A stretch of 64,000 bases of DNA from Calditrichia bacterium (GTDB lineage Bacteria > Calditrichota > Calditrichia > JAJRVZ01). Within the stretch, counting starts at the first letter, position 1. Each line of letters starts with the position of its first letter. Below the pieces are notes generated by a model, which searched no databases, was not told where the DNA came from, and worked only from the letters and a program-made list of their open reading frames with translations. The position numbers were made by a program, and so were the translations under genes. The stretch lies in NCBI GenBank assembly GCA_963796965.1, contig CAWCNS010000009.1, positions 585,470-649,469 on the forward strand, in the 5' to 3' direction. Shown one piece after another: positions 1-40,698 of the stretch.

Positions 1-318
1 GGTAATACAGGCATAGCTCTGGCCATGATTGGCGCTTCTTTGGGGTACCGTGTTACACTTTGCATTCCGGAAAATGCTGGTGATCTTCACAAACAAATGA
101 TGGTTTCTTATGGTGCAAAATTGATTTATACAGATCCTTTTAGTGGCACCGATGGCGCCATAGCAAAGGCCAGGGAAATAGTTGCCGAAAAACCTGATAA
201 ATTCTTTTATGTGGATCAATACAATAATCCCAAAAACTGGCAGGCTCATTATGAGGGCACTGGACCGGAAATAACTTATCAGACCCGGGCGCGATTACTC
301 ATTTTGTTGCCGGACTAG
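1..318 (+). CDS. cysM: cysteine synthase (PLP-dependent, CysM/CysK family), 5'-partial N-terminal part; reading frame breaks near 283-290 and continues in frame 3
   Basis: Translation GNTGIALAMIGASLGYRVTLCIPENA...KFFYVDQYNNPKNWQAHYEGTGPEI is typical of O-acetylserine/O-phosphoserine sulfhydrylase. After ...EITYQT the frame-1 product becomes nonsense, while frame 3 reads GAITHFVAGLGSSGTFVGTGRWLKK (the conserved CysM core). CCC/GGG homopolymers lie at the junction. Confidence 0.75.
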   Translation, partial: GNTGIALAMIGASLGYRVTLCIPENAGDLHKQMMVSYGAKLIYTDPFSGTDGAIAKAREIVAEKPDKFFYVDQYNNPKNWQAHYEGTGPEITYQTRARLLILLPD

Positions 319-701
319 GATCCAGTGGTACTTTTGTCGGTACAGGACGCTGGTTAAAAAAATATGACCCTGATATAAAATTAATATCAGTACAGCCCGA
401 TTCACCACTCCATGGTATGGAAGGAATGAAACATATGGAAACAGCTCTTATACCCGGAATTTATGATTCTGACCTTGCCGATAGAAATGTTGAAATTTCT
501 ACCGAGGAAGCTCAAACAATGGTTCATCGTTTAGCTAGGGAAGAAGGTCTTTTGGTGGGTAATTCTGCAGGAGGTGTTATGGCAGTTGCACTCAAAATTG
601 CAGAGGGTCTTCCCTCTGGTCAAATTATCATTATCTTTGCTGATGGTGCTTTTAAATACATGAACCAACCATTCTGGAAGGATTCATATCATGAAAATTA
701 A
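282..701 (+). CDS. cysM: cysteine synthase, C-terminal part (frame 3 continuation of the same gene)
   Basis: ITHFVAGLGSSGTFVGTGRWLKKYDPDIKLISVQPDSPLHGMEGMKH...LLVGNSAGGVMAVALKIAEGLPSG matches the C-terminal half of CysM/CysK. Stop codon at 699-701. Confidence 0.7.
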   Translation, partial: DPGAITHFVAGLGSSGTFVGTGRWLKKYDPDIKLISVQPDSPLHGMEGMKHMETALIPGIYDSDLADRNVEISTEEAQTMVHRLAREEGLLVGNSAGGVMAVALKIAEGLPSGQIIIIFADGAFKYMNQPFWKDSYHEN

Positions 702-1134
702 AATTAATCGCGTTGACCTGAAAGGTATTAAAAATCATGGTGTAAAAGATTATCCTTATGAGTGCTGTGGATTTTTGTTTGGTAAATCCTCTGAGGAGAC
801 TAAGACTATCTTGAAAATTCAGCCAGTTCAGAATTCTCGTGCTAGTGAAAACAAACATAACCGCTACCTGATTACACCCCAGGAATTTTTGAAGGCAGAA
901 CGTCTTGCCAGAATAGAAGGACTTGATATTATTGGATTTTATCATTCACACCCGGATGCAGAGGCAAGACCATCCCAATATGACCTGGATTATAGTTGGC
1001 CGGTATATTCTTATCTCATTGTATCTGTAAAAAAAGGGAAAGCTAAAGAAGCAACATCATGGCAGATAAAAGAAGATCGATCGGAATTTTTACAGGAGGA
1101 GCTAGCTATTAATACAGCTCCGGTTGAGATCTGA
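691..1134 (+). CDS. mec: JAMM/MPN+ (Mov34) zinc metalloprotease, Mec+/QbsD/CysO-hydrolase-like
   Basis: 147 aa with the JAMM motif (E...HSHP...S..D: GFYHSHPDAEARPSQYDLD). Start overlaps the cysM stop. Sits between cysM and the sulfur-carrier/E1 gene, as in the actinobacterial mec-cysO-cysM cluster. Confidence 0.8.
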   Translation: MKIKINRVDLKGIKNHGVKDYPYECCGFLFGKSSEETKTILKIQPVQNSRASENKHNRYLITPQEFLKAERLARIEGLDIIGFYHSHPDAEARPSQYDLDYSWPVYSYLIVSVKKGKAKEATSWQIKEDRSEFLQEELAINTAPVEI

Positions 1135-1220
1135 AGATCACTACAAAATAGTTGGAATTTAGACTTGGTAGTAGCAAAAAGAATGAATCATTAGTGGATA
1201 AAAACATGGAGCCATAAATC

Positions 1221-2663
1221 ATGAAGACCCAAATAATCATACCCAGCGCCTTGCGCCAGTATACAGATAATAATGATGCTATTGAATCTGCCGGTAAGAC
1301 TGTCGCAGAGGTATTAGAAGATTTAACAACACAATATCCGCTGCTTAAAAAACATCTTTTTAGTGAAGATGGCAGATTGCGGAATTTTGTTAATATTTAT
1401 ATTAATGAAGATGATATTCGCAGCCAGCAACAGAAACAAACTTCAATAAAGGAAGGCGATATCGTCTCAATTATTCCATCTGTAGCCGGAGGAAATTTTG
1501 ATATAGCTGATACAAAGGAAGTTGATTTATCTTCCGAGGAAATCAGTCGCTACAGTCGCCATATTTTAATGCCAGAGGTAGGCATTGAGGGTCAGAAAAA
1601 ATTAAAGAATTCATCGGCATTAATCGTAGGTCTGGGCGGTCTTGGTTCACCTTTGTCTTTATATCTGGCTGCCGCAGGAATGGGCAGATTGGGATTGGTT
1701 GATTCCGATGTCGTTGATCAAACCAACCTGCAGCGTCAGATCATCTATTCTGAAGATCAGGTTGGACAGTCAAAGATACAGAGTGCAAAAGATCGTCTTA
1801 GTGGCATTAATCCACATATCAGGATTGATACCTATGAAACCTTTTTTACTTCTGATAATGCAATGGAATTGGCTTCCCCCTACGATATGATTATTGATGG
1901 CACGGATAATTTTGCTACCCGCTATCTTGCCAATGATGTCAGTGTTCTTTTGGGAATTCCAAATGTACATGGCAGTATTTTTCGCTTTGATGGTCAGGTT
2001 TCTGTTTTTGATGCAAAAAATGGGCCCTGTTATCGGTGTCTTTATCCAGAGCCGCCACCTCCAGGTATGGTTCCAAGTTGTGCTGAGGGAGGCGTTTTGG
2101 GAATTTTACCTGGTATAATAGGCATGATCCAGGCAACCGAAGCGATAAAGCTGGCCCTGGGCCAGGGTGATAGCCTGGTCGGGAGATTATTAACCTTCGA
2201 TGCCATGCGCATGAAATTTCGGGAGTTGAAACTTAACAAGGATCCAAATTGCCCGATTTGTGGTGACAACCCCTCTATCACTGAGCTCATCGATTATGAT
2301 GCATTTTGCGGTTTAGGTCCTGATTCCCATGATATTCTGGAGGAGGAGTGGAATATTCACCCTAACCAACTAAAAAATGCTCTGGATAAAGGAGAAAAGA
2401 TTCGCATTGTGGATGTGCGTCAACCACAAGAATATGCTATCGCGAGATTACCGCAATCAGATCTGATTCCCTTATCAAACCTGGAGGTAAGTCTTCATAC
2501 ATTAAATCGTGATGAGGAAATTGTGGTGCTCTGCCGTTCTGGTATTCGCAGCGCTCAGGCAGTTAAATATTTACGAGAGGCGGGATTTAAAAATGTAAAA
2601 AATCTTGAAGGTGGCATTCTGGCCTGGGCCGATCAGATTGATTCAGAAATGATAAAATATTAG
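1221..2663 (+). CDS. moeZ: fusion protein: CysO/MoaD/ThiS-like ubiquitin-fold sulfur carrier (aa 1-91, ending ...SVAGG) + MoeZ/MoeB-type E1 adenylyltransferase + C-terminal rhodanese domain
   Basis: N-terminal ~90 aa beta-grasp ending in AGG. Then the ThiF/MoeB nucleotide-binding motif VGLGGLGSP, the zinc tetracysteine CYRC...C..C / CPIC, and a rhodanese domain with active-site CRSGIRS. Confidence 0.85.
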   Translation: MKTQIIIPSALRQYTDNNDAIESAGKTVAEVLEDLTTQYPLLKKHLFSEDGRLRNFVNIYINEDDIRSQQQKQTSIKEGDIVSIIPSVAGGNFDIADTKEVDLSSEEISRYSRHILMPEVGIEGQKKLKNSSALIVGLGGLGSPLSLYLAAAGMGRLGLVDSDVVDQTNLQRQIIYSEDQVGQSKIQSAKDRLSGINPHIRIDTYETFFTSDNAMELASPYDMIIDGTDNFATRYLANDVSVLLGIPNVHGSIFRFDGQVSVFDAKNGPCYRCLYPEPPPPGMVPSCAEGGVLGILPGIIGMIQATEAIKLALGQGDSLVGRLLTFDAMRMKFRELKLNKDPNCPICGDNPSITELIDYDAFCGLGPDSHDILEEEWNIHPNQLKNALDKGEKIRIVDVRQPQEYAIARLPQSDLIPLSNLEVSLHTLNRDEEIVVLCRSGIRSAQAVKYLREAGFKNVKNLEGGILAWADQIDSEMIKY

Positions 2664-2993
2664 ATCTCAATAATAAAGTGGGTGGCCATGATTAAAATTA
2701 AGAAATCGGATAATTACTCCCAGGGAAACAATCACAAAAAAGCTGCCCACAATTCCTCCCAATTCTAATCCTCCTATAAATGAACAAATCAATAAATAGA
2801 AAATTGATACCCAATTTAGAAAAATTAAGGATTTCGTCATGTCATGATCTCCTTTTCAGAATATGTATAAACCTTAGTAAATGATACATGCTTTGATGTA
2901 CATGGCACAGTTACTTTATCTATCTCGTATTAAATAATAAACCAACTGAATATACTCTTCAAGTGGTCGTTATAATTTTTATTCCAGAAATTG

Positions 2994-4595
2994 CTATATT
3001 ATTTCATGCTGATGTAGAAGTGTAATATCATTATTAAACGCGTTATCTTTGTCTTTCAAACTTCTTTTATCAAATTGAAATTTAATTAGACTATCATAAG
3101 TATCTTCTATTTTGTCTATAACCATTTGAATACTTACCATAATTTCATCGTAGATTTTTTGTTTTACATCATTTAGTTCTGGTAAACTTGATAAAATTTC
3201 AACAATAGATTCACCCGTACAACGTACTGCCTCCATTAATTCTTCTTTTATAAAACCCTCAATATATCTTTCTTCGGCCAATTTTCTGGCATATTCGAGC
3301 AAATTGGTACGGTCACCTGTTTTTAAATCATTCTCAAGCATCTTGTACAAGTAGCCCACTCTAAAAATTAATTTGTCCAGATTAATTTTTTGATATGATG
3401 GAAAAATATTTCTGTTTTTATTTGCCAGAAGTTTTTCCAAAATACTCTGAATGATCTTTTGACGATAAGCAATCAATGATTCATAAATGATTAAATATTT
3501 TCTCTCACTTACCGCTTTATATGGTCGTATCTCATTTCTATATCGCCATTCAAAAGGATTACTCTTCATATTTGCTATCAAAAATAATAGGCGGCGTTTA
3601 ATATCATAGCGAGAAGTTGGTGTCCAGGAAAGGATTGCATATGAAGAAGCTGGATTAACCCTCATTTCCCTATCAATATATTTCACCATCCAAATCTTCT
3701 CGAATGTGGGGGTATTAATCAATCGCCCTAATATACATTTGATAAATATTCCAATACGCGTAATACTTTTGGGTATAAACATGGGTTCAACATTCTCGAA
3801 ATATTTATACTTCGTTGCGATTTCGAATAATTCTTTATGAGAGGTACATTTAGGTGAACTTGCAATTAAAATTTTAAAATCTGGTATCTTTTTTGAGTTT
3901 TTAAGGCATTGCAAAAAAAAGAAAACAAGATCATATATGTGTAAGTATGGAACTGCTGCTCGGCCTTTACCCGCTAGCAATCTACAATTCCAATGGGGAG
4001 ATAACCAAGTAGATAAAAATGAATATAGAGGAAGATACTCGCACCAATCGCTGAAGATAGCTGACTGGCGAACAACAACACAGGGAAAGGTTTTCGAATA
4101 TTTTTTTACTAACGCCTCCCCTGCACTTTTTGATCGAGCATAGGGAAAGGTTGCATCAGCAGGACTCTTTTCTGTTAAGATACTATCCGACTTTGTAAAT
4201 TCTGATACAGTAAGTGTGCTTGAAAATATAAATCGGGATAGTCCCAGATCTTTACAATATTTAAGGATGTTTTCGGTGCCAAGAATATTTGTTCTTTCAT
4301 ATTCACGATCTTCACTATTCTGAAAATTATAAAAGGCTGCTAAATGTAGGAAGTAATCAGCACCTCCCCTTTCAGCAATTTCCTCCAAAAGATGCTTAAC
4401 TTTAATTTCATCGGCAATATCTAATCTATTCCAAACAATATTTGGATGAATAGCTATACCGGCTTCTTTTTGAGATCTTCTCGCCAAGCCATAGATATAG
4501 TACTTATCTTTTATGGCGTCCAGGAAATACCTGCCCACAAATCCGGAGGCCCCACTAACTATGATTACTGGTAAATCAGATGGGCGCTTCACCAC
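2994..4595 (-). CDS. NAD-dependent epimerase/dehydratase (extended SDR) family protein with ~190-aa uncharacterised C-terminal helical extension
   Basis: N-terminal Rossmann motif VSGASGFVGRYFLDAI with a YxxxK-type SDR core over the first ~330 aa. The C-terminal 190 aa (YKAVSERKYLIIYESLIAYRQKII...) has no family I recognise. Confidence 0.75.
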   Translation of the reverse strand: MVKRPSDLPVIIVSGASGFVGRYFLDAIKDKYYIYGLARRSQKEAGIAIHPNIVWNRLDIADEIKVKHLLEEIAERGGADYFLHLAAFYNFQNSEDREYERTNILGTENILKYCKDLGLSRFIFSSTLTVSEFTKSDSILTEKSPADATFPYARSKSAGEALVKKYSKTFPCVVVRQSAIFSDWCEYLPLYSFLSTWLSPHWNCRLLAGKGRAAVPYLHIYDLVFFFLQCLKNSKKIPDFKILIASSPKCTSHKELFEIATKYKYFENVEPMFIPKSITRIGIFIKCILGRLINTPTFEKIWMVKYIDREMRVNPASSYAILSWTPTSRYDIKRRLLFLIANMKSNPFEWRYRNEIRPYKAVSERKYLIIYESLIAYRQKIIQSILEKLLANKNRNIFPSYQKINLDKLIFRVGYLYKMLENDLKTGDRTNLLEYARKLAEERYIEGFIKEELMEAVRCTGESIVEILSSLPELNDVKQKIYDEIMVSIQMVIDKIEDTYDSLIKFQFDKRSLKDKDNAFNNDITLLHQHEII

Positions 4596-4832
4596 TGATA
4601 CCCCTTAAAAACGAATAGGTATATGCACGTAAGTAATTATCCAATTCGAGTAGGTAATTTTATTCTTAGTCTTAACAGAAAAGGAGAAGTGAAAATTTCA
4701 AGTAGAGGCTGGATCAGAAAGAATTTCCATGAGCTGTTTTAGGATTCATATCAAATATAGTTATTTTTAATCTCAAAACAAGCGAATTTATTAAGATATT
4801 GTGTTATAGTATCTGCAATTGTTATACACAAA

Positions 4833-5129
4833 TTAGCTTCGTATCACTTCATAGAGCCCCGGGTAATTAGATGGATAGTCGGTAGCTGATTCCACAATAC
4901 TATTGAGTTCTTTATTGTTCAAAGCAGCCATAAAATGGTCTGGTGATTCCCATTCTGAGATAATTACCAGATGAAATCTGGCATCTGGATTGATCGCGCG
5001 ATGGAACTTCGCCGTTACCTATCCTGGTTGCTTTCTAAAATACGCAGCAAATTTATCCCACATAACAATTGCCTGTTCCTCATTTCCTTCCGATACTTCG
5101 AATGGATTGATTACAATTATATTAGCCAT
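4833..5129 (-). pseudogene. ABM (antibiotic-biosynthesis monooxygenase / Dabb-like) domain protein interrupted by an in-frame TAG codon (minus-strand 5021..5019)
   Basis: Minus-strand translation MANIIVINPFEVSEGNEEQAIVMWDKFAAYFRKQPG*VTAKFHRAINPDARFHLVIISEWESPDHFMAALNNKELNSIVESATDYPSNYPGLYEVIRS. The frame is continuous across the TAG, where homologues usually carry Tyr. Missed by the ORF track because it is split into two sub-threshold ORFs. Confidence 0.5.
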
Positions 5130-5340
5130 TTATCCCCTAGATTTACTAAAATTAATATACCCTCATTTATTTGAATTATTCTATATTCAACCTGCTTCTA
5201 TTCCGGGTTATTCCATTAGTTAAATATAGAAAAACGTATATTGACAGAATTCAAATGAATAAAAACATATTGAAATTAAAATTGCTGGATGTTATTTTAG
5301 AAATAGATTATCGCCTTTATCATCATTCCCAATATTTTAA

Positions 5341-8300
5341 TTGAATACTAATATTGCACCGCTATCTTATATTATAAGGACTAATCCAGGAAAGGATGTT
5401 GTTGTGCGAAATTTCTTAAAAATTGTTGCGACAATAGTTCTACTCAAATTCTGTATGTTAATAGTACCGACGAGTGGCTTTGCTCAAATGAAGCCTGTAA
5501 TCGGACTACATGAGAATGTGCCCAATGTTGTTTATCTGACAAACGTCCGGATTATAAAAGCCCCAGGCCTTGTAATTGAAAAGGGCATTCTTTTTATAAG
5601 AGATGGCCGAATTGAAGCTGTTGGATCAGGTATAAAAGCGCCAGCTGATGCCCATGTTATTGACCTGAAAGGAAAAACAATCTATCCCGGGTTTATAGAT
5701 TTATTTTCTTCCTTTGGTTTGGAAGAGAATGATAATTCCAAAGCAAAAAGTGTCGCGAGTGAAAGCTATCAAACCAGAGGCGCTGTCTACTGGAACCCGG
5801 AAGTTCATCCCCAGACGAATGCCGCCCATGAGTTAGAGTCAAACAAAGAACAGGCTGATCTCTTACGTGGGAATGGATTTACGACCGTTCTTACCTTACC
5901 GGCTAAGGGTATCTTCCGGGGAAGCGGTGCTCTTATTCAATTAACAGATGACACACCAAATAAAATGATCCAAGAATCCAATCTGGTTCAATCCTTATCA
6001 TTTAAAAAGGGAAAGATACCTAGGATAAGAAGCACTGCATCATACCCGCGCTCGACAATGGGCAGTATTTCACTCATTCGTCAGGTTTTTTTGGATGCCC
6101 AGTGGTACGAACAGGCCTGGACAAAATATCGTCGTTCACCTTCCGGACGAGCGACCCCACCAACCGATTTAACTCTCGAGGCTCTGGTTCCATTTTTAAA
6201 TAAGAAGAGGCCGGTAATCACCTCCATATCTAACGAATTGGAGATATTTAGAGCCGCCAAGATAGCCCGGGAGCTTGACCTGAAGATGTGGTTCATGGGA
6301 TGTGGCAGTGAATATCGCCGCATTGATGATCTCAAAGATCTGAAAACGAAAATAATTATCCCTCTCAACTTTCCGCCTCCACCTATCGTTTCATCAGAGG
6401 AGCGAGCCCTTTCGGTAAATCTTCGTGATTTAAAATATTGGGATGTAGCAGCAGAAAATCCTGCCCGCCTAGCCAAAGCAAAAATAGATTTTGTATTATC
6501 TTCAACGCAGCTCACGAAAGAATCTGCTTTCCTCAAAAATTTAAGATTAGCTGTACGCAGAGGTCTTCCGGAGAAAGAGGCACTAACAGCCTTAACCCTC
6601 AGACCGGCTAAATGGCTAAATATGGATGATCAACTTGGTAGTCTTGACAAAGGCAAAATTGCCAATTTTTTTATCACAGATGGTGACCTATTTGAGGATA
6701 ATACACATATATTGGAGACTTGGGTAAACGGAAAAAAGTATCCGGTTATAAATGTGCCCGTTACGGACCCAAGAGGTCTGTGGACAGTAACCATAGCAAC
6801 GCAGAGTGGTGAGGAAACAGCAACGCTTGATATTGATGGCTCAATCGAAAAGCAAAAAGCAACGATAACATTGTGTAACGTTGAGGTTAAGATTAAAGAT
6901 ATTAAATTGGAAAATGGCATTCTCAATCTTTCCTTTACCGCAGATTCATCCTGCCATTCCGGAGTTACCCGCCTGACCGGTATTTTGACGGATCGGCAAC
7001 TATCCGGCCTCGGCATATGGGCCAATGGTAGCAGTTTCCACTGGAAAGCAGATCTAATCAATTCCTTGAATGAAAAAACTGATAGTACCGTAGTTAATTC
7101 AAATCGGATGGCCGAATTTCCTGTGGTCTATCCTGACGGTGCATTTGGAATGTCTTCTGCTCCGAATCAACCGCCTTCCCTGCTTATAAAAGATGCCACC
7201 ATATGGACGAGCGGCCCTGAAGGTATCATTGAAAACGCGGATATGCTCATTAAAAAGGGTAAAATTTTCCGCATTGGTCGGGATCTTTCAATTCCCTCTG
7301 ACACAAAAATTATTGATGCTGCTGGTAAACACCTAACTCCGGGACTCATTGATGCTCACGCTCATATTGCTACAAGTGGCGGAGTCAATGAAGGTACCCA
7401 GGCAATTACTGCAGAAGTCAACATTAGAGACATCATCGATTGTGATGATATCAATATCTATCGCCAATTAGCCGGTGGTGTGACAACAGTCTGCACCCTA
7501 CATGGTTCGTCCAACCCCATCGGAGGAACCTATGCTGTGATTAAACTAAGATGGGGCGAGATGCCCGATAAAATGTTACTTAGCAAAGCAAAAGATGGGA
7601 TAAAGTTTGCCCTGGGAGAAAATGTTAAGCAATCAAACTGGTCCAATTCCGTTCCCCGTTATCCACAAACACGGATGGGTACCATTGAAATCATTGAGGA
7701 TGCCTTTCGGGCAGCAATGGATTATCGTCAAGAATGGAATATGTATAAAACAGAATATAAAAAAAATAAAAATTTAATCTCCCCACGTAAGAACCTGCGG
7801 TATGAGAAAATTCTCGATATTCTTGATGGCAAGACTATTATCCACTGCCATAGTTACCGGCAGGATGAATCGTTGGCTTTAATGAGGTTGGCTGAAGAAA
7901 TGAATTTTAAAATTGCTGTATTTATCCATATTCTGGAGGGCTATAAAATTGCCACTGAATTAAAAGCCCATGGTGCCATGGCGACAACCTTCAGCGATTG
8001 GTGGACTTATAAAATGGAAGCCTATGACGCCATTCCATATAATGGTGCGATCATGCATGAACAGGGGATTATCGTTAGTTATGATTCGGACAGCGCAGAA
8101 CTAGCCCGGCGCCTGAATACCGAGGCAGCCAAGGCTGTCAAATATGGAAATGTGCCGCCTAACGAAGCTCTGAAATTTGTTACTTTAAATGCAGCCAAGC
8201 AATTGTTTTTAGAAGATCAGATCGGTAGCCTGGAGCCGGGTAAAGATGCTGATTTTGTTATATGGAGTGATTCTCCCCTCTCTACATATGCCAGGTGTGA

Positions 8301-8439
8301 ACAGACCTGGATTGATGGTCGCAAATACTTCGACCTGAAAGACGATGAACAGAGAAGGGAAAAAGTTGCCAGGGAGCGGAATGTTCTAATTCAGAAAATT
8401 TTGAAGATAGAGGAGACGAAAGAGTCCACGAATGAGTAA
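5341..8439 (+). CDS. amidohydrolase family protein (tandem metal-dependent hydrolase domains), secreted
   Basis: Signal-peptide-like N-terminus (probable real start at GTG ~5404: RNFLKIVATIVLLKFCMLIVPTSGFAQ). Amidohydrolase motifs GLIDAHAHIATSGG and IHCHSY..DE. 1032 aa with two amidohydrolase-like halves. Confidence 0.8.
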   Translation: MNTNIAPLSYIIRTNPGKDVVVRNFLKIVATIVLLKFCMLIVPTSGFAQMKPVIGLHENVPNVVYLTNVRIIKAPGLVIEKGILFIRDGRIEAVGSGIKAPADAHVIDLKGKTIYPGFIDLFSSFGLEENDNSKAKSVASESYQTRGAVYWNPEVHPQTNAAHELESNKEQADLLRGNGFTTVLTLPAKGIFRGSGALIQLTDDTPNKMIQESNLVQSLSFKKGKIPRIRSTASYPRSTMGSISLIRQVFLDAQWYEQAWTKYRRSPSGRATPPTDLTLEALVPFLNKKRPVITSISNELEIFRAAKIARELDLKMWFMGCGSEYRRIDDLKDLKTKIIIPLNFPPPPIVSSEERALSVNLRDLKYWDVAAENPARLAKAKIDFVLSSTQLTKESAFLKNLRLAVRRGLPEKEALTALTLRPAKWLNMDDQLGSLDKGKIANFFITDGDLFEDNTHILETWVNGKKYPVINVPVTDPRGLWTVTIATQSGEETATLDIDGSIEKQKATITLCNVEVKIKDIKLENGILNLSFTADSSCHSGVTRLTGILTDRQLSGLGIWANGSSFHWKADLINSLNEKTDSTVVNSNRMAEFPVVYPDGAFGMSSAPNQPPSLLIKDATIWTSGPEGIIENADMLIKKGKIFRIGRDLSIPSDTKIIDAAGKHLTPGLIDAHAHIATSGGVNEGTQAITAEVNIRDIIDCDDINIYRQLAGGVTTVCTLHGSSNPIGGTYAVIKLRWGEMPDKMLLSKAKDGIKFALGENVKQSNWSNSVPRYPQTRMGTIEIIEDAFRAAMDYRQEWNMYKTEYKKNKNLISPRKNLRYEKILDILDGKTIIHCHSYRQDESLALMRLAEEMNFKIAVFIHILEGYKIATELKAHGAMATTFSDWWTYKMEAYDAIPYNGAIMHEQGIIVSYDSDSAELARRLNTEAAKAVKYGNVPPNEALKFVTLNAAKQLFLEDQIGSLEPGKDADFVIWSDSPLSTYARCEQTWIDGRKYFDLKDDEQRREKVARERNVLIQKILKIEETKESTNE

Positions 8440-8524
8440 ATCACCCGTTGTCTCAGCGAGAAATACCGATGGGACATATCACGAATTATAATGATTACCG
8501 TAAGCAGAAAGCAGGAAAGAAAAT

Positions 8525-9844
8525 ATGAGACATTTATTAATCCAATTAATATTACTGTCAATTACATTTCTCGTTAATCAGAATGTGGGTTCAGATCAGA
8601 TACCTGCCGGACCTCAAAAACAACCGATCGCCCTTACAAATGTAACCATCCATCCCATAAGCACAGAAACCATCGATAATGGAATCATTGTTTTCTCGAG
8701 AGGCCAAATCGTTGCCATTGGGAAAAATGTATCTATACCCGGGAATGCGCATGTCATTGATCTGGCTGGTAAACATGTCTATCCGGGAATAATTGAAGCC
8801 TATTCCCGGATTGGACTAACCGAGGTCAGCGCTGTGAAAGCAACGAATGACTATCAGGAGCTTGGGCAAATAAATCCAAATGTCCGTGCAGAAGTAGCTA
8901 TCAATCCAGAATCTGAATATTTTCCGGTCCATCGGGCCAACGGTATTGCCATGGCTGTTTCAGCCCCAACAGGTGGTATTCTTTCAGGTAAATCAGCATT
9001 AATACGAATGGATGGCTGGACCTGGGAGGATATGACCTACAAAGCACCTGTTAGCATGATGATGGACTGGCCCTCTTTAAGCATTCCGTATTCTCCCTCC
9101 GGAGGGAAATCCGAAGAAGAAAGAAAGAATGCGATAGAGAAGAATATGGCTCTTCTTAATAAAACTTTTATGGATGTGCGTGCCTACATGGTTGCACATA
9201 GTTCCCAAACGAATAAAAATACCTCTCATTATAAAACCGATTTAAGACTTGCGTCACTTATTCCTGTTCTACAAAGGGAACTTCCACTTTGGATAAAGGC
9301 AAATTCCCTCGTCGACATAGAAGCCGCTATCAGCTGGTCAAAAACGCAACAAATAAGAATTGTTATTATTGGAGCAGCAGACACTGAATTTACCACTGAA
9401 CTATTAAAAGAAAATAATATTCCGGTGATCGTCAGCCCTATCCTCCGCCTTCCCTCCAGACGGGACGCCAATTTTGATCAGCCCTTCACTCTGCCCAACA
9501 AACTATATCAGGCAGGTGTAAAATTCTGTATTGCCAGTGGTGGGGCCAGCGCCGTACGCAATCTTCCCTACCATGCAGCAAAAGCAGCTGCTTACGGTTT
9601 ACCAAAACAAGAGGCGTTAAAAGCTATTACTGTATATGCGGCTGAAATTCTAGGCGTTTCCGATAAACTGGGTACACTTGAGATCGGGAAAGATGCCACC
9701 CTTATTATTACGGATGGTGATCCTCTGGAGATTACCACACATGTGGAAAAATTATATATTGAGGGTAGAGATATTGACCTTGGCAATAAACATAATGACT
9801 TATATCTAAAGTATCAGAAGCGATATGAACAAACCCCTAACTAG
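8525..9844 (+). CDS. amidohydrolase family protein, secreted
   Basis: Signal peptide MRHLLIQLILLSITFLV. The amidohydrolase fold motif VYPGIIEAYS is paralogous to the C-terminal half of the preceding gene. Confidence 0.8.
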   Translation: MRHLLIQLILLSITFLVNQNVGSDQIPAGPQKQPIALTNVTIHPISTETIDNGIIVFSRGQIVAIGKNVSIPGNAHVIDLAGKHVYPGIIEAYSRIGLTEVSAVKATNDYQELGQINPNVRAEVAINPESEYFPVHRANGIAMAVSAPTGGILSGKSALIRMDGWTWEDMTYKAPVSMMMDWPSLSIPYSPSGGKSEEERKNAIEKNMALLNKTFMDVRAYMVAHSSQTNKNTSHYKTDLRLASLIPVLQRELPLWIKANSLVDIEAAISWSKTQQIRIVIIGAADTEFTTELLKENNIPVIVSPILRLPSRRDANFDQPFTLPNKLYQAGVKFCIASGGASAVRNLPYHAAKAAAYGLPKQEALKAITVYAAEILGVSDKLGTLEIGKDATLIITDGDPLEITTHVEKLYIEGRDIDLGNKHNDLYLKYQKRYEQTPN

Positions 9845-9851
9845 GGCTGAT

Positions 9852-11102
9852 TTATTCATATCTCAAAGCTTCAACCGGCTCTACACTCGCAGCTTTGCGC
9901 GCCGGGAAGAAACCGGCAAATAGACCAATAAGCGAAAGGAGTGTAATAGATACTGCGATCACAGAATGTGATAAGAGAGGACGACCTAGAAAAGACATAG
10001 CCCCCTCCTGCGCCGGCATCATCCATACTAATTTGATCAAACCAACAGATGCTAACATTCCTAAAGAGCCACCAATAAAAGCGATGAGCAATGATTCAAA
10101 AATAAACTGAAAAATGATATGACTTCGCTTTGCCCCAACGGCCCGCTTAATACCAATTTCACGGGTGCGTTCTTTAGCAACCACATACATAATATTTGCC
10201 ACACCAACACCGGCAATTATCAAAGACATGGATCCTATCACCGCCAGAAAAATATTTATTCCTCTGAATATTTTTGCGCCTTCCTGTTCATTCTCAATAA
10301 AATTCCACATGGGCACTGCTCTTTCATCGGTGGGATCGAAATGATACTTCTTACCAAGAACCCTTCTGATTTCCTGCTCAACAAAAAGCCCGTTTTCAAC
10401 ACGGCTTGGTTTAACAATTAATTCATCAAGATAGGGATCTCCATAAATACTTTGAAAGGTTGTAAAAGGGATAAGTGCTCTTTCATCATCTGGACCATTG
10501 TTCATTGATGTCTGTAGCTTTTTGGGCATAGTACCGACTACAGTAAAAGGTATGCCATCAATTTCAACTGTCTCACCATAGGGATCGGGTCGACCGAAAA
10601 GCTCCCTGGCAATTTCACCCCCCAGAAAAACAACACGTTTTCTTTCTCGTAAATCCATACCATTCAAAAACCGTCCGCCAGCACCATGAAAGGTTCGACG
10701 TAAAAATTCAAATTCTGGATATACACCTTCCATATAGGTTGATGAAATTATATCGCCAACTTTTAGACGCGCTCTTCTGCCTAAACCAGGTACGGCAACA
10801 GCAACCTGTGGAATATTTTTTTCAATGACTTCACAGTCTTCGATGCGTAGCCAAATCCGACGGCCTACAGGTAATCCTTCCCATTTTTTTGTTGTCTGCC
10901 CACCATAGACACGAATTATTCTGTCACCAGCGTTGAGTAGACCTTCCCGCATTTGATGGGATAATCCTTCACCAAACGCCATTAAAAGGGTTACCGCAAG
11001 AATCCCCCAGGATATTGCAATAGTTGTTAAAATAGCTCGGGTCTTTTGTGACTTTATATCCTCAATAAACTCTCTTAATAATATCAACATATTCATAGAC
11101 AT
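9852..11102 (-). CDS. ABC transporter permease, FtsX/MacB-type (periplasmic domain + 4-TM FtsX domain)
   Basis: 416 aa with an N-terminal TM, a large periplasmic domain and the C-terminal FtsX signature NIMYVVAKERTREIGIKRAVGAKRSHII. Confidence 0.85.
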   Translation of the reverse strand: MSMNMLILLREFIEDIKSQKTRAILTTIAISWGILAVTLLMAFGEGLSHQMREGLLNAGDRIIRVYGGQTTKKWEGLPVGRRIWLRIEDCEVIEKNIPQVAVAVPGLGRRARLKVGDIISSTYMEGVYPEFEFLRRTFHGAGGRFLNGMDLRERKRVVFLGGEIARELFGRPDPYGETVEIDGIPFTVVGTMPKKLQTSMNNGPDDERALIPFTTFQSIYGDPYLDELIVKPSRVENGLFVEQEIRRVLGKKYHFDPTDERAVPMWNFIENEQEGAKIFRGINIFLAVIGSMSLIIAGVGVANIMYVVAKERTREIGIKRAVGAKRSHIIFQFIFESLLIAFIGGSLGMLASVGLIKLVWMMPAQEGAMSFLGRPLLSHSVIAVSITLLSLIGLFAGFFPARKAASVEPVEALRYE

Positions 11103-11123
11103 TCATCCTGAAATGGAAATCGG

Positions 11124-12371
11124 TTAATATCGCAGGCAATCAATTACGATTAACTTTGCAGCCCGGCGGGCTGGGAAAAAGCCAGCCAGAAAGCCAATCG
11201 AACTTAAAATAATAACAGTCACAATAGCAACGAGTGGATTTAAAACTGGTGTTCCTACGGCTTCTTTAAAATCACCCATCGGTATGGTATTAAGAAGGGT
11301 AATAATCCCTACAGCCAACACAAATCCTATAAATGCCCCAATTCCAATAACGACGAATGCCTCAAGTAAAAACTGTCCGAATATATTTCTGCTCCGGGCA
11401 CCTACAGAGCGCCGGATACCAATTTCACGCGTCCGCTCCTGAACAACCACATACATAATATTTGCCAACCCGATTCCACCAACAATGAGGGTAATGACAC
11501 CAATCAAACCCATAAAAACATTAAAACCCAAAGAAAAACTGGCGACAAAATCATCCATCGTCGTTGTATCCCAAATCCCTAATGTTTCTTTATCATTTGG
11601 ATCAAATTTAAATTTCTTACCCATGACAGTATATACCTGCTTCTTCACAGATGCAGATATTCCCGGTGAAGCAACCTGATAAATAAAATTACTCACATAT
11701 CGACGACCAAAAAGGGATTTATGAGTTGTCATAGGTATAAAAGCACGATCTCTGTCACGTTGGCTATAAGATGAATTTTGTGTTTTTTCCTTCATCACTC
11801 CAACAACCAAAAAGGGTGTCTCATCAATATATACATACTCACCAATAACAGAGGCGTTTTCACCAAAAAGAAAATCCCGCAATCTGTTACCCAAAAACAC
11901 AACCCTTCTTTTATATTCGTTATCCAAATCGTTAATCCAGCGTCCACCCGGTTCCGGCCAGATATTTCTCATGTACCCATATTCTGTAATTATACCGGTT
12001 ACATTAGGCCGATTAATTTTATCTTTTACCCGGACAGTAGAACCCCACTTACTAAACTCCGGACTAATTCTCAAGATATCTTTAACCTCATTGCGAATGA
12101 GCTCAATATCATCTTCAGTGAGTCGAATACGTCGGTCCCGACCATATCCTTCAAAAGGTATGCTCGTACGCCCCGGCCATACAATACCAATCCGTTCACC
12201 GATACCATGCATATTCTTGCTCATCTGCTTCTCAACGCCAACCCCAAAAGCGAGGAGTAAGATTACAGTTAAAGTACCCCAGATGAGACCAAACATGGTC
12301 ATCGCAGTCCTGGCTTTATACTGTCCCAGGTAATGAAGTATTTCCCGCAGACTATCGAAAAGATTTAACAT
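11124..12371 (-). CDS. ABC transporter permease, FtsX/MacB-type (paralogue)
   Basis: 415 aa with the same architecture as the upstream permease (NIMYVVVQERTREIGIRRSVGARSRNIFGQF). Confidence 0.85.
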   Translation of the reverse strand: MLNLFDSLREILHYLGQYKARTAMTMFGLIWGTLTVILLLAFGVGVEKQMSKNMHGIGERIGIVWPGRTSIPFEGYGRDRRIRLTEDDIELIRNEVKDILRISPEFSKWGSTVRVKDKINRPNVTGIITEYGYMRNIWPEPGGRWINDLDNEYKRRVVFLGNRLRDFLFGENASVIGEYVYIDETPFLVVGVMKEKTQNSSYSQRDRDRAFIPMTTHKSLFGRRYVSNFIYQVASPGISASVKKQVYTVMGKKFKFDPNDKETLGIWDTTTMDDFVASFSLGFNVFMGLIGVITLIVGGIGLANIMYVVVQERTREIGIRRSVGARSRNIFGQFLLEAFVVIGIGAFIGFVLAVGIITLLNTIPMGDFKEAVGTPVLNPLVAIVTVIILSSIGFLAGFFPARRAAKLIVIDCLRY

Positions 12372-12718
12372 TTTTTCCTAATTTATCCTCTTAATAAATT
12401 TTATCTAACTTCTTTCCTCACGCAACGACGCAAAGAAAAAATATTGTCCACGAATTCCACTAATTTCACAAACTAATTTGATTGTCATTCAGTATGAATC
12501 TTCCAGCGTGACAGATAAATATCTTCGATCAGGAAGATACCTATCCCGAGACGCGATCCCGTTCCGGGACGGGATGACGATTATTAACTTATCGTTTACC
12601 ATTCTCCATTCATAATTCATAACGACCCGGTAACTGGTCGGGCGGACACATGGGTCCCCCCCTACATCTCTTCGCTCTTCGCTTCTCGTTCCACGCTTTA
12701 CATTTTTTTTCTTAAAGA

Positions 12719-13852
12719 TTAAGTTATCTCCTTAACCTCTTTCTCCAATACTTCCTGACCTTCCTCCAATCCTTCTAAAACTTCAATCTGTATTGCATCG
12801 CTGAGACCTGTCTTTATGTAAATTTCCTCTGTTTTTTCAGGTCCGCTTGCTATTTCGACAAAGGCAGAGTCGTTTCGAAAGGTTACCACCCTCTCCGGAA
12901 TAGATATAACACTATCTCTTTTGGCAATAATAATGTGTGCATTGGAAGAAAATCCTGCCCGTAATACGACATCATTCGTGGGATTTATTTTTATTTCCAC
13001 TGGAAAAACAGTTGTATTATCTTCTTTTTTCGCTTTTAGAGATATGAGTTTTAAATATCCCGTAATATTTTTGCCAGGTAAAGCCCCAACCTGCAAATCA
13101 CAGTTCATCCCCTCTTTGATTTTGCCCACATCTATTTCATCTACAGTGCCCTTAAAAATCAAATCATTCATATCTGCCATACGCATGATTGCCGTTCCTG
13201 GCTGATATGAGGTGAGCGGTACTACCGGATCACCAAGATTGACATTTTTTTCTAATATAAATCCTGTCAACGGGGATTTGACAACTGTTTCTATATCTGT
13301 ATTAGCGATTTTCACTTTACCACTTTCTATTAACTGTAATTTTTCTTTTGATATCTGATGACGTAGCTTAGCTTCATCATACTGCCTATCAATAACCTCA
13401 TAGTCATGGTCAGAAATGAGGCCCTTTTCCTTCATTTGTTTATATCTTTCTAATTCTTTAACTAATGTTTGCAATTCAATGTCAACCATTTCCACATCAC
13501 GTTTGGCTTGAGCCAATTCAAGAGGGGTGGGATCAGGTTTAACATCCAGGAGCGGATCACCCACTTTGACAAAATCACCAACATTAGCATATAGTTTTCT
13601 GACAACGCCGGAAATTTTGGATTTAACATCAATTTCTGTCACTGGCTCTATTGAGCCTACAGCTAAAGCCTTGTCGATGATATCTTTTCGGCTAGCCTTT
13701 ACGGAACTTCGCCCATTTTCATCACCATTTGAATTTGAGGATATGGCCACTGTTACAATAATGATTATAATAAGGATCACAATAGACCAAATGATCCATT
13801 TTTTTGATTTTTTCATCATTGAAGCCCTTCTTCCGGAGGTTAACCGATGCAT
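12719..13852 (-). CDS. efflux transporter periplasmic adaptor subunit (HlyD/MacA membrane-fusion protein family)
   Basis: N-terminal TM, coiled-coil hairpin (LQTLVKELERYKQMKEKGLISDHDYEVIDRQYDEAKLR), lipoyl and beta-barrel domains. Operonic with the two FtsX permeases. Confidence 0.85.
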   Translation of the reverse strand: MHRLTSGRRASMMKKSKKWIIWSIVILIIIIIVTVAISSNSNGDENGRSSVKASRKDIIDKALAVGSIEPVTEIDVKSKISGVVRKLYANVGDFVKVGDPLLDVKPDPTPLELAQAKRDVEMVDIELQTLVKELERYKQMKEKGLISDHDYEVIDRQYDEAKLRHQISKEKLQLIESGKVKIANTDIETVVKSPLTGFILEKNVNLGDPVVPLTSYQPGTAIMRMADMNDLIFKGTVDEIDVGKIKEGMNCDLQVGALPGKNITGYLKLISLKAKKEDNTTVFPVEIKINPTNDVVLRAGFSSNAHIIIAKRDSVISIPERVVTFRNDSAFVEIASGPEKTEEIYIKTGLSDAIQIEVLEGLEEGQEVLEKEVKEIT

Positions 13853-39035: not shown

Positions 39036-39461
39036 GTGCAATTATCAAAATCCTTTATCTTCTATATTATTGTACTCTTTTTTTTAATAAAAATAACTCC
39101 GGGTCAGACATTTGAAAATATCAGCCTGGTTGGCAGATGGGCGGAAGGACCCTGTAATGCCGTATCTGTTTCAGGTAATTTCATTTATAAAGGCAGTGGT
39201 TCACTTATTTATATTCTAGACATCTCCGGCGAGGGGGATCCTCTCCCGGTGGGAGAAGTACTCTTACCTAATATCGCAAAACATATTGCCACTTTTGGGA
39301 ACAGGTTATATTTGATCGATGAAGATGAGATCCTCTATGTTTTTGATATATCAAATCCAACCACCCTCTTAGAAACTGGCTCTTTACCTCAGGGATATTT
39401 GTTGCTGATATGGTTGCACAGGGAAATTATTTATATCTGGGAAACAGTAATAACGGTTTAA
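39036..39461 (+). CDS. giant LVIVD-repeat T9SS surface protein A, fragment 1/4 (signal peptide + first LVIVD blades); frameshift at GGG ~39392-39394
   Basis: GTG start. Signal peptide MQLSKSFIFYIIVLFFLIKITPGQ. The LYLIDEDEILYVFDISNPTTL blade ends in a nonsense tail. Confidence 0.75.
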   Translation: MQLSKSFIFYIIVLFFLIKITPGQTFENISLVGRWAEGPCNAVSVSGNFIYKGSGSLIYILDISGEGDPLPVGEVLLPNIAKHIATFGNRLYLIDEDEILYVFDISNPTTLLETGSLPQGYLLLIWLHREIIYIWETVITV

Positions 39462-40690: not shown

Positions 40691-40698
40691 AAGGTGAT

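What the first reader, a model, noticed from the sequence alone, without database searches (positions are those of the whole stretch)
1..2663. CysM - JAMM protease - (CysO fused to MoeZ): sulfur-carrier-protein cysteine biosynthesis with the carrier covalently fused to its own E1
The three adjacent genes reproduce the mycobacterial CysO/CysM/Mec+ pathway, which is an established pathway. In it a ubiquitin-like thiocarboxylate carrier, activated by MoeZ, donates sulfur to CysM, and a JAMM protease (Mec+) releases cysteine from the carrier. Here the CysO-like beta-grasp domain (aa 1-91, ending SVAGG) is translated as a single polypeptide with the MoeZ adenylyltransferase-rhodanese. That implies the adjacent JAMM protease must also cleave after the GG to liberate the carrier, as the QbsD/QbsE prokaryotic ubiquitin-like processing system does. 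A fused carrier-E1 with a dedicated JAMM partner is a compact, rarely characterised arrangement. It would also be the first such module in an FCB-group genome that I am aware of.
Basis: partly seen in the sequence, partly recalled or inferred. Interest (0 to 1): 0.6.

Follow-up and report, generated by a model that had tools for sequence, protein, structure and literature searches.

The report
Cysteine-synthesis operon with carrier fused to activator
This is a three-gene bacterial operon for making cysteine with a small ubiquitin-like sulfur-carrier protein, in which the carrier is translated as one polypeptide with its activating enzyme; the arrangement is real and biochemically untested, but it occurs in many bacterial phyla.

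Summary
They are a cysM-like PLP enzyme (1..701), a JAMM/JAB metalloprotease (691..1134), and a 480-aa protein (1221..2663) made of a CysO-like beta-grasp domain, an E1 adenylyltransferase and a rhodanese domain. The beta-grasp domain matches M. tuberculosis CysO (E 1e-15) and ends in an invariant PS[VI]AGG. A linker of variable length and sequence follows, which AlphaFold2 models as disordered.

The order cysM-JAB-(Ubl)E1 recurs in 64 of 80 species-level genomes from many phyla. In 16 of these 80 the carrier and the E1 are separate ORFs, and the split arose at least 11 times. The covalent link is therefore dispensable, which fits release of the carrier after GG by the adjacent JAB. That cleavage is inferred, not shown.

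Two caveats. In this window cysM is cut by the window edge and carries a 1-nt deletion. This is probably an assembly error, because other genes here are also frameshifted. The claims of rarity and "first in FCB" fail: the fusion occurs in Bacteroidota, Gemmatimonadota, Calditrichota and KSB1, and the operon type was catalogued in 2006, when JAB-mediated release was also predicted.

Verdict: a new member of a known kind, of modest interest.

The parts
1..701 (+). 3' part (about 233 codons) of a cysM-like PLP-dependent sulfhydrylase gene. It is cut by the window edge and its reading frame is broken: frame 1 up to about nt 290, frame 3 from there to the stop at 699..701.
   Evidence: Translations. 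Closest solved structures are E. coli/Salmonella CysM. Intact 322-aa orthologues exist in L081-L083.
286..293 (+). Site of a 1-nt deletion (frameshift) in cysM, relative to close relatives.
   Evidence: DNA alignment: window CAGACCCGGGCGC-GATT against L081 CAGACCCAGGGGCAGATC. Other genes in the window are also split by frameshifts, so an assembly or sequencing error is the likelier cause.
691..1134 (+). JAMM/JAB (MPN+) zinc metalloprotease gene, 147 aa. It overlaps the end of cysM by 11 nt. Catalytic residues are E24 (nt 760..762), H85-S-H87 (nt 943..951), S95 and D98 (nt 982..984).
   Evidence: Pfam Prok-JAB, E 5.6e-22. PDB 2kcq_A, E 4.5e-27, and P. furiosus JAMM1 5lda, E 4.7e-10. The motif residues are invariant in 78 syntenic orthologues.
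1208..1211 (+). GGAG Shine-Dalgarno-like motif 9 nt upstream of the ATG of the fusion gene, inside the 86-nt JAB-to-fusion spacer (1135..1220).
   Evidence: Read directly from the sequence. Not tested further.
1221..2663 (+). Fusion gene, 480 aa: CysO-like ubiquitin-fold sulfur carrier, linker, MoeZ/MoeB-type E1 adenylyltransferase, rhodanese.
   Evidence: Pfam and NCBIfam. 119 of the 120 best homologues have the same architecture. AlphaFold2 model with mean pLDDT 86.5 and pTM 0.81.
1221..1493 (+). CysO-like beta-grasp domain, aa 1-91, ending PSVAGG. The G90-G91 codons are at 1488..1493.
   Evidence: PDB CysO hits 4n6e_B (E 1.7e-16) and 3dwg_C (E 1.4e-15), aligned end to end and both ending AVAGG. 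P86, A89, G90 and G91 are invariant in 107 homologues. Modelled beta-grasp with pLDDT 85-94.
1494..1529 (+). Inter-domain linker, aa 92 to about 103. The predicted JAB cleavage site lies at its N-terminal edge (G91|N92).
   Evidence: pLDDT below 50 for residues 90-99 and no secondary structure across 87-104. In 107 homologues the linker is 5-19 aa long, its sequence varies, and the residue after GG is N, S, A, V, K or others. In 16 related genomes a real stop codon lies in this segment.
1551..2255 (+). E1-like adenylation domain (ThiF/MoeB fold), aa 111-345. It has the nucleotide-binding G137-x-G139-G140 motif, D229, a Cys4 zinc site (C270, C273, C344, C347) and the crossover-loop residue C287 (nt 2079..2081).
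   Evidence: Pfam ThiF, E 4.8e-81. Invariant residues. Foldseek match to MoeB 1jw9_B with TM 0.95 (normalised to target) and rmsd 1.7 A. phmmer hits to Uba4 and MoeB.
2361..2633 (+). C-terminal rhodanese (sulfurtransferase) domain, aa 381-471, with active-site C438 (nt 2532..2534) in the loop C-R-S-G-I-R-S.
   Evidence: Pfam Rhodanese, E 3e-19. C438, G441 and R443 are invariant.

Best explanation
The locus is a cysM-JAB-(cysO~moeZ) operon for cysteine synthesis that depends on a sulfur-carrier protein. It belongs to the same kind of pathway as M. tuberculosis CysO/CysM/Mec+/MoeZ.

Proposed mechanism:
1. The 480-aa protein is made as a carrier-E1 polyprotein.
2. The adjacent JAMM protease hydrolyses the peptide bond after Gly91, inside a flexible linker, and so exposes the GG carboxylate of the CysO-like domain.
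3. The E1 domain adenylates that carboxylate.
4. The persulfide on rhodanese Cys438 converts the adenylate to a thiocarboxylate.
5. The CysM-type PLP enzyme adds the thiocarboxylate to its aminoacrylate intermediate. Whether the precursor is O-acetylserine or O-phosphoserine is unknown.
6. After an S-to-N acyl shift, the same JAMM protease hydrolyses the GG-Cys amide, which releases cysteine and regenerates the carrier.

The pathway already needs a protease that cuts whatever follows GG, so a C-terminal extension on the carrier costs nothing, even when that extension is a whole E1. This would explain why fused, tailed and split forms interconvert freely in this family.

Shown here: the domain identities, the conserved catalytic residues, the conserved GG, the disordered variable linker, the conserved synteny and the fused/split polymorphism.
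Inferred: cleavage by this JAB, thiocarboxylate chemistry, and cysteine as the product.
For: Domains:
- Pfam and NCBIfam assignments.
- The Ubl domain is 40-45% identical, end to end, to the structurally characterised CysO proteins 3dwg_C and 4n6e_B, and is far weaker against MoaD or SAMP1.
- The E1 domain matches MoeB/Uba4 and has the invariant nucleotide-binding, zinc-site, crossover-Cys and rhodanese-Cys residues.
- The JAMM motif is invariant in 78 orthologues.

Junction:
- PS[VI]AGG is invariant in 107 of 107 homologues. It is followed by a 5-19-aa linker that varies in length and sequence.
- AlphaFold2 gives pLDDT below 50 for residues 90-99, between two confident domains.

Context:
- 74 of 80 genome loci have a JAB gene upstream, and 64 of 80 have contiguous cysM-JAB-(Ubl)E1.
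- No second CysO-like ORF lies in the 64-kb window or in the fetched flanks (up to 6-8 kb each side where the contig allows) of any of the 83 related loci.

Natural experiment:
- In 16 of the 80 genome loci, genuine TAA, TAG or TGA stops in the linker split the carrier from the E1. In 15 of 16 the two ORFs are in the same frame, and in 15 of 16 the carrier keeps a 1-27-aa tail after GG.
- On a neighbour-joining tree of the E1 domains, fused is the inferred root state, with at least 11 independent changes to split.

Precedents:
- The CysO/CysM/Mec+/MoeZR pathway (PMC3227635).
- MoaX must be cleaved after GG to be active (PMC4326299).
- HvJAMM1 cleaves a linear SAMP1-MoaE fusion exactly after GG (PMC4443979).
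- Iyer et al. 2006 predicted that JAB releases fused ThiS/MoaD.
Against: - No biochemical evidence exists for any member of the fused family, and I found no paper that describes it explicitly.
- The CysM orthologue scores below NCBIfam's cysM equivalog cutoff (337 against 394 bits). It is closer to enterobacterial CysM than to M. tuberculosis CysM. Its partnership with a protein thiocarboxylate therefore rests on synteny alone.
- In this window cysM is frameshifted. If the frameshift is real, the pathway is broken in this organism.
- The AlphaFold2 model is a monomer and says nothing about access of the JAB to the linker.
Confidence: 0.75

Rival explanations
1. The fused beta-grasp domain is never released. 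It acts as a permanent docking, regulatory or autoinhibitory module of the E1, and the real sulfur carrier is a stand-alone ThiS/MoaD/CysO encoded elsewhere in the genome.
For: Iyer et al. 2006 argued this for a different group of Ubl-ThiF fusions that co-occur with stand-alone ThiS genes. Only 64 kb of this genome could be searched.
Against: - The GG is invariant in 107 of 107 homologues and sits exactly where CysO ends. A docking domain has no need for it.
- No second carrier gene lies in the window or in any of the 83 related loci.
- The domain has been split off as a free protein at least 11 times without loss of the operon.
- The operon always carries a JAB protease.
Confidence: 0.07
2. 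The gene is what databases call it, a MoeB-type molybdopterin-synthase adenylyltransferase. On this reading it is fused to MoaD and serves molybdenum-cofactor or thiamin biosynthesis rather than cysteine synthesis.
For: - The NCBIfam model PRK08762 (MoeB) is passed, at 464.8 bits against a cutoff of 449.
- GenBank names for homologues are 'molybdopterin-synthase adenylyltransferase MoeB'.
- M. tuberculosis MoeZR serves both CysO and MoaD (PMC3227635), so a second role in trans is possible.
Against: - The Ubl matches CysO at E 1e-15 to 1e-16 but MoaD only at 4e-5 to 0.03.
- The conserved neighbours are cysM and JAB, not moaE, moaA, moaC or thiG.
- According to Iyer et al. 2006, classical MoCo and thiamin operons never contain a JAB.
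Confidence: 0.07
3. The module is a protein-conjugation system, either sampylation/urmylation-like or an anti-phage Ubl system such as CBASS Cap2/Cap3 or Bil. In that case the JAB would act as a deconjugase.
For: - There are weak domain-level hits to the 6A-MBL cap2_3 model and to PADLOC E1-E2 and JAB models.
- The best NCBIfam hit for the JAB is the Haloferax desampylase, although below its cutoff.
- The Ubl also resembles SAMP1.
Against: - The PADLOC hits cover only the Rossmann core, at 60 bits or less, against about 500 bits to MoeB/MoeZ. There is no E2 domain and no effector gene.
- A rhodanese domain and a cysM neighbour point to sulfur chemistry.
- Side conjugation, as seen with Urm1 or SAMPs, cannot be excluded.
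Confidence: 0.03
4. In this particular organism the operon is decaying: the cysM frameshift is real and the pathway is non-functional.
For: A 1-nt deletion relative to three close relatives disrupts cysM.
Against: - The 137 codons downstream of the shift remain open and highly conserved.
- The JAB and fusion genes are intact.
- At least one other gene in the same window is clearly split in the same way: the sulfatase at 52248..53784. The LVIVD and DUF5916 genes probably are too. This pattern is typical of indel errors in an assembly.
Confidence: 0.12

Closest known systems
M. tuberculosis CysO (Rv1335) / CysM (Rv1336) / Mec+ (Rv1334) / MoeZR (Rv3206c) cysteine pathway
   Same: It has the same four functional modules: a CysO-type beta-grasp carrier ending AGG (E 1.4e-15 to 3dwg_C), a CysM-type PLP enzyme, a JAMM protease and an E1-rhodanese activator. 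The predicted chemistry is the same (PMC3227635).
   Different: - Here the carrier is translated in one chain with the E1, so a maturation cleavage is needed.
- The gene order is cysM-JAB-cysO~moeZ, with the E1 inside the operon. In M. tuberculosis moeZ is not in the cysO/cysM/mec operon (own knowledge of the Rv gene numbers, not tested here).
- The CysM is closer to enterobacterial CysM than to Mtb CysM.
- The serine-derived substrate is unknown.
Iyer, Burroughs & Aravind 2006 operon type 4c (ThiS/MoaD + E1-rhodanese + JAB + cysteine synthase; for example Salinibacter ruber, Solibacter usitatus, Rubrobacter, Chloroflexus)
   Same: The gene set is the same and the distribution is similarly sporadic and multi-phylum. 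The best solved structure for the JAB here is 2kcq_A, a Mov34/MPN/PAD-1 family protein. The paper already predicts that JAB frees the C-terminus of fused ThiS/MoaD domains.
   Different: The parts of the paper I could read do not single out the carrier-E1 fusion in this operon type. They describe N-terminal Ubl-ThiF fusions in thiamin operons, and one Pelobacter case next to cysteine synthase.
Sulfur-carrier precursors with tails after GG that a JAMM protease trims: QbsE/QbsD (quinolobactin) and HcyS/HcyD (Wolinella methionine pathway)
   Same: An operon-encoded JAMM protease is expected to remove residues that follow the GG of a ThiS/MoaD-type carrier before an E1 can activate it. What I state about QbsE/QbsD and HcyS/HcyD comes from my own knowledge of the literature and was not re-read here.
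   Different: Those tails are 1-2 residues long. Here the 'tail' is a 389-residue enzyme. In split relatives it is 0-27 residues.
MoaX (M. tuberculosis fused MoaD-MoaE) and the HvJAMM1 / SAMP1-MoaE linear fusion
   Same: In both, a sulfur carrier is fused N-terminally to a pathway partner. Cleavage exactly after GG is required for activity (PMC4326299). A JAMM enzyme has been shown to perform such a cut (PMC4443979).
   Different: The fusion partner there is the sulfur acceptor enzyme MoaE, not the activating E1. The protease that cleaves MoaX is unidentified, and the SAMP1-MoaE fusion was engineered.

Membership tests
CysO/CysM/Mec+/MoeZ-type sulfur-carrier-protein cysteine biosynthesis | A ThiS/MoaD-family beta-grasp carrier of the CysO type whose fold ends in Gly-Gly | tested here: met
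   Pfam ThiS, aa 6-91. End-to-end alignment to CysO structures 3dwg_C and 4n6e_B. Confident AlphaFold2 beta-grasp. GG invariant in 107 homologues.
CysO/CysM/Mec+/MoeZ-type sulfur-carrier-protein cysteine biosynthesis | The Gly-Gly is the free C-terminus of the mature carrier and becomes a thiocarboxylate | not testable with these tools
   In the primary translation product, G91 is followed by 389 residues. Exposure requires proteolysis, which is inferred from the linker disorder, from the split relatives and from precedents.
CysO/CysM/Mec+/MoeZ-type sulfur-carrier-protein cysteine biosynthesis | A MoeZ-type activator: an E1 adenylation domain plus a C-terminal rhodanese domain with a catalytic Cys | tested here: met
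   ThiF and Rhodanese domains. 490.7 bits to the MoeZ model NF005902, which is below its equivalog cutoff of 647. Invariant nucleotide-binding, zinc-site, C287 and C438 residues. Fold match to MoeB and Uba4.
CysO/CysM/Mec+/MoeZ-type sulfur-carrier-protein cysteine biosynthesis | A dedicated JAMM/MPN+ metalloprotease with an intact E...HxH...S..D motif in the operon | tested here: met
   A JAB gene lies upstream in 74 of 80 related loci.
CysO/CysM/Mec+/MoeZ-type sulfur-carrier-protein cysteine biosynthesis | A CysM-type (type B) PLP sulfhydrylase in the operon | tested here: inconclusive
   The best model is TIGR01138 cysM and the best structures are E. coli/Salmonella CysM. However, the intact orthologue scores 337 bits against the 394-bit equivalog cutoff. 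In this window the gene is truncated and frameshifted.
CysO/CysM/Mec+/MoeZ-type sulfur-carrier-protein cysteine biosynthesis | CysM uses O-phosphoserine and the carrier thiocarboxylate, and the JAMM releases cysteine from the carrier-Cys adduct | not testable with these tools
   This needs enzymology. The sequence does not discriminate between OAS and OPS use.
JAMM-processed sulfur-carrier precursors (QbsE/QbsD, HcyS/HcyD type) | Residues encoded after the GG of the carrier, together with an operon-encoded JAMM protease | tested here: met
   A linker and the E1 follow GG. The JAB is adjacent. 15 of 16 split relatives have tails of 1-27 aa.
MoaD-MoeB molybdopterin synthase sulfurylase system | A carrier of MoaD type, and genomic linkage to moaE, moaA or moaC | tested here: not met
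   The Ubl matches CysO at about E 1e-16 but MoaD at 4e-5 or weaker. The conserved neighbours are cysM and JAB. The flanking genes are hydrolases, transporters and an SDR.
Anti-phage E1-E2/JAB systems (CBASS Cap2/Cap3, 6A-MBL, Bil-like) | An E2 domain fused to or adjacent to the E1, plus effector or cyclase genes | tested here: not met
   PADLOC and NCBIfam give only weak hits to the E1 core (60 bits or less) and to the JAB. There is no E2 and no effector.

The most novel reading that the evidence does not exclude
JAB cleavage of the carrier-E1 polyprotein may be a regulated licensing step rather than constitutive housekeeping. The uncleaved fusion would then be a zymogen-like, inactive store. 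The protease, perhaps responding to redox or sulfur status, would switch on thiocarboxylate-dependent cysteine synthesis while also acting as the turnover hydrolase in every catalytic cycle.
Probability: 0.12. Interest if true: 0.55.

Novelty: new member of a known kind. Interest (0 to 1): 0.3.

Why it matters
If the mechanism holds, one small JAMM protease does two jobs. It matures a ubiquitin-like carrier out of a polyprotein, and it releases the product, cysteine, in every catalytic cycle. That would be a clean bacterial analogue of ubiquitin-precursor processing combined with deubiquitination.

The family is large and spans many phyla. It includes a cultured Moritella isolate, so the proposal can be tested directly. 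The repeated natural fission events already suggest that the covalent link is not needed for function.

On the practical side, these genes are currently annotated as 'MoeB' or 'ubiquitin-like small modifier protein 1', which hides their likely role in cysteine synthesis. For this window itself the finding is ordinary. It is one more member of a widespread operon, and its cysM copy is damaged, probably by an assembly error.

Tried and rejected
- Rfam scan of the whole window found nothing at gathering thresholds, so there is no riboswitch or RNA element to add.
- The promoter/terminator scan of 1..5400 gave no more sites than shuffled sequence, so operon boundaries could not be defined.
- A search of 1.84 billion 50%-identity cluster representatives with the Ubl domain found 4761 hits at E<=1e-3 and 1173 at E<=1e-10. 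The top list mixes stand-alone CysO-like proteins of about 90 aa with N-terminal fragments of fused proteins. It is therefore not a usable census of fused against free forms, and I used the 80 genome loci instead.
- The cluster-member lookup gave almost no taxon names for the closest homologues. The window's organism was not identified beyond T9SS sorting domains, which point to the FCB group.
- I tried to obtain an alignment to M. tuberculosis CysM to inspect its O-phosphoserine-specificity residue. Mtb CysM ranked too low to be displayed, so I make no claim about OAS or OPS use.
- Burroughs et al. 2009 (E1-like superfamily) could not be retrieved. Four full-text searches found no paper that describes a CysO-E1 fusion.
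- Stop-codon readthrough or selenocysteine as an explanation for the 'split' relatives is rejected. The stops are a mix of TAA, TAG and TGA, several loci have further in-frame stops, and each E1 has its own ATG.
- The anti-phage reading is rejected.

Full report
**Anatomy**

The region 1..2663 holds three co-directional genes on the + strand.

(i) A PALP-family gene enters from the window edge. Frame 1 reads GNTGIALAMIG...GPEITYQT and then reaches a stop at 316..318. The conserved continuation (GAITHFVAGLGSSGT...KDSYHEN*) lies in frame 3 and ends at 699..701. Three close relatives carry an intact 322-aa gene: L081, whose fusion protein is 89% identical to the window's, and L082 and L083, at 85%. 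DNA alignment shows that the window lacks one base at about nt 289-293.

(ii) ORF 691..1134 (147 aa) overlaps the cysM stop by 11 nt. It is a Prok-JAB/JAMM protein (PF14464, E 5.6e-22). Its best solved relatives are 2kcq_A (E 4.5e-27) and Pyrococcus JAMM1. E24, H85-S-H87-P, S95 and D98 are invariant in 78 syntenic orthologues.

(iii) An 86-nt spacer follows, with a GGAG 9 nt before the ATG. ORF 1221..2663 then encodes 480 aa with three Pfam domains: ThiS (aa 6-91), ThiF (aa 111-345) and Rhodanese (aa 381-471).

**Is the fusion real?**

Yes. Of the 120 best homologues among 5.8 billion proteins, 119 are 474-500 aa long with the same three domains, at 59-100% identity. In alignments of 25 and 107 of them, P86, A89, G90 and G91 (PS[VI]AGG) are invariant. 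So are the E1 nucleotide-binding glycines, D229, the four zinc cysteines, crossover-loop C287 and rhodanese C438.

The segment between GG and the start of the E1 (ELSxxEIxRYSRH) varies in length (5-19 aa) and in sequence. The residue after GG is N, S, A, V, K and others.

An AlphaFold2 model built from 107 sequences has mean pLDDT 86.5 and pTM 0.81. It shows a confident beta-grasp for residues 1-86. Residues 90-99 have pLDDT below 50, and no secondary structure is predicted across 87-104. The E1 part superposes on MoeB (1jw9_B) with a target-normalised TM-score of 0.95 and rmsd 1.7 A.

Neither was met.

**What is the N-terminal domain?**

Its best solved relatives are the two structurally characterised CysO proteins. 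These are 4n6e_B (E 1.7e-16) and M. tuberculosis CysO in complex with CysM, 3dwg_C (E 1.4e-15). Both align from residue 3 to the terminal AGG. MoaD and SAMP1 structures score orders of magnitude worse. The domain is therefore a CysO-type carrier, not a generic MoaD.

**Context and distribution**

A scan of one genome per GTDB species returned at least 598 relatives, and the 80 best all cover residues 1-480 of the query. By their record titles, which are MAG labels I did not verify, they come from:
- Acidobacteriota (many)
- Gemmatimonadota
- Bacteroidota (L019, L028)
- Chloroflexota
- Cyanobacteriota
- Armatimonadota
- Eisenbacteria
- Elusimicrobiota
- Rubrobacteraceae
- the cultured Moritella sp. 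PE36 (L071)
- Thermoplasmata archaea (L004, L072)
.

tblastn with the window's JAB and CysM found a JAB gene upstream in 74 of 80 loci; three of the other six have no upstream sequence. A contiguous cysM-JAB-(Ubl)E1 block occurs in 64 of 80.

No second CysO-like ORF exists in the 64-kb window, nor within the fetched flanks of any of the 83 loci.

Named GenBank homologues include Caldithrix, KSB1, Nitrospinae and Acidobacteriota. Two proteins in the window carry T9SS C-terminal sorting domains. This fits an FCB-group origin, which I did not pin down further.

**Fused and split forms**

In 16 of the 80 genome loci the carrier and the E1 are separate ORFs. A genuine stop codon (a mix of TAA, TAG and TGA) lies 0-27 codons after GG, and the E1 has its own ATG.

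In 15 of 16 the two ORFs share a frame, as expected if point mutations interconvert the two forms. In 15 of 16 the free carrier still has a tail after GG, and several tails are Cys-rich.

On a neighbour-joining tree of the E1 domains, parsimony infers fused as the root state and at least 11 independent changes to split. The tree is rough and the count is approximate.

The covalent link is thus repeatedly dispensable, while GG, the JAB and cysM are retained. This is what one expects if the polyprotein is always cut after GG.

**Mechanism**

The established M. tuberculosis pathway runs as follows. MoeZR adenylates CysO and converts it to a thiocarboxylate. CysM then adds the thiocarboxylate to an aminoacrylate derived from O-phosphoserine. 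Finally the JAMM protease Mec+ hydrolyses the CysO-Cys adduct (PMC3227635).

A carrier embedded in a polypeptide cannot be adenylated. MoaX, a natural MoaD-MoaE fusion, must be cut between G82 and S83 to be active (PMC4326299). The JAMM enzyme HvJAMM1 cuts a linear SAMP1-MoaE fusion exactly after GG, both in vitro and in vivo (PMC4443979).

Hydrolysing GG-Cys and hydrolysing GG-Xaa are the same reaction. I therefore propose that the operon's single JAB both matures the polyprotein and turns over the adduct.

The domains, motifs, linker properties, synteny and fission pattern are shown here. The cleavage, the thiocarboxylate and the cysteine product are inferred.

**CysM**

The repaired fragment scores best against the cysM model, and so does the intact orthologue from L081. 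The scores for L081 are TIGR01138 cysM 337 bits and cysK 277 bits, but 337 is below the 394-bit equivalog cutoff.

Among solved structures, E. coli and Salmonella CysM come first, and M. tuberculosis CysM ranks lower.

It is a distinct subfamily, and its serine-ester substrate cannot be called.

**The frameshift**

The sulfatase gene at 52248..53784 is clearly split in the same way, with Pfam profile positions 1-189 in one ORF and 203-301 in the next. An LVIVD-repeat gene and a DUF5916 gene probably are too.

The part of cysM downstream of the shift is open and conserved. An indel error in the assembly is the more likely explanation, but a recent pseudogene cannot be excluded.

**Comparison with the literature**

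Iyer, Burroughs and Aravind (2006) catalogued the operon 'ThiS/MoaD, E1-rhodanese, JAB, cysteine synthase' in Salinibacter ruber, Solibacter, Rubrobacter, Chloroflexus and others. They noted N-terminal Ubl-ThiF fusions, and they predicted that JAB domains free the C-terminus of fused ThiS/MoaD.

I found no paper that describes or tests the CysO-E1-rhodanese fusion itself. The library is limited to open-access text, and the 2009 review of the E1 superfamily was not available.

**Rivals**

- A never-cleaved docking domain is made unlikely by the invariant GG, the absence of another carrier and the repeated fission.
- A MoCo or thiamin role is contradicted by the CysO affinity and the neighbouring genes, although the E1 could also serve other carriers in trans, as MoeZR does.
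- Anti-phage or conjugation systems are rejected, because there is no E2 and only weak domain-level PADLOC hits.

**Verdict**

The pathway assignment and the cleavage inference are well supported but untested. The claims of rarity and of a first occurrence in the FCB group are wrong.

This is a new member of a known and widespread operon family. Its fused-carrier architecture is common in genomes but not yet characterised biochemically. Interest is modest (0.3).

Noticed in passing
window 286..293 (cysM); 52248..53784; 39036..40690; 25813..28075: Several genes in the window look frameshifted. cysM has a 1-nt deletion relative to its relatives. A sulfatase is split into ORFs that cover Pfam profile positions 1-189 and 203-301. 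An LVIVD-repeat gene and a DUF5916 gene form overlapping ORF pairs. This suggests indel errors in the assembly rather than specific loss of cysM.
   Followed up: partly
window 2500..4600 (ORF 2994..4595, - strand; small ORF 2667..2840, - strand): A 533-aa protein with an N-terminal SDR/NAD-epimerase domain, and a 57-aa hydrophobic ORF, sit in a low-GC stretch (about 0.31 against about 0.40-0.43 nearby). The stretch is absent from close relatives L082 and L083, where the fusion gene is followed directly by the large amidohydrolase gene. It is probably an insertion.
   Followed up: no
L034 5199..5579, L055 5707..6348, L074 2105..2485, L056, L057: In relatives where the carrier is a separate gene, its tail after GG is often Cys-rich: GGCCPCGCCCCPR, ...GCCPPACGR, GGSSCCR, GGC and GGSCADGE. 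The function is unknown. The tails might bind a metal or carry a persulfide before the JAB removes them.
   Followed up: no
L009, L013, L019, L024, L026, L032, L034, L035, L047, L054-L057, L074, L079, L080: In 15 of the 16 split loci the carrier ORF and the E1 ORF are in the same reading frame, even where 60-100 nt with extra stops separate them. On a neighbour-joining tree the split state arose at least 11 times from a fused ancestor. This points to repeated gene fission by nonsense mutation in the linker.
   Followed up: partly
L004 and L072 (Thermoplasmata archaeon MAGs); L071 (Moritella sp. PE36): The same fused gene, with upstream JAB and cysM, appears in contigs labelled archaeal and in a cultured gammaproteobacterium. 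This implies horizontal spread and provides a culturable organism for experiments. The MAG taxon labels were not verified.
   Followed up: no
window 39036..52201: A cluster of large secreted-type proteins with LVIVD repeats and beta-propellers. Two of them, 42743..44977 and 47609..52201, have T9SS (Por) C-terminal sorting domains, which is consistent with an FCB-group organism.
   Followed up: no
window 5341..13852 compared with L082/L083: Downstream synteny with the close relatives is conserved: two amidohydrolases, two MacB/FtsX permeases on the - strand, and a HlyD-type membrane-fusion protein. Upstream of cysM the relatives carry an alpha/beta-hydrolase gene that lies outside this window.
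   Followed up: no
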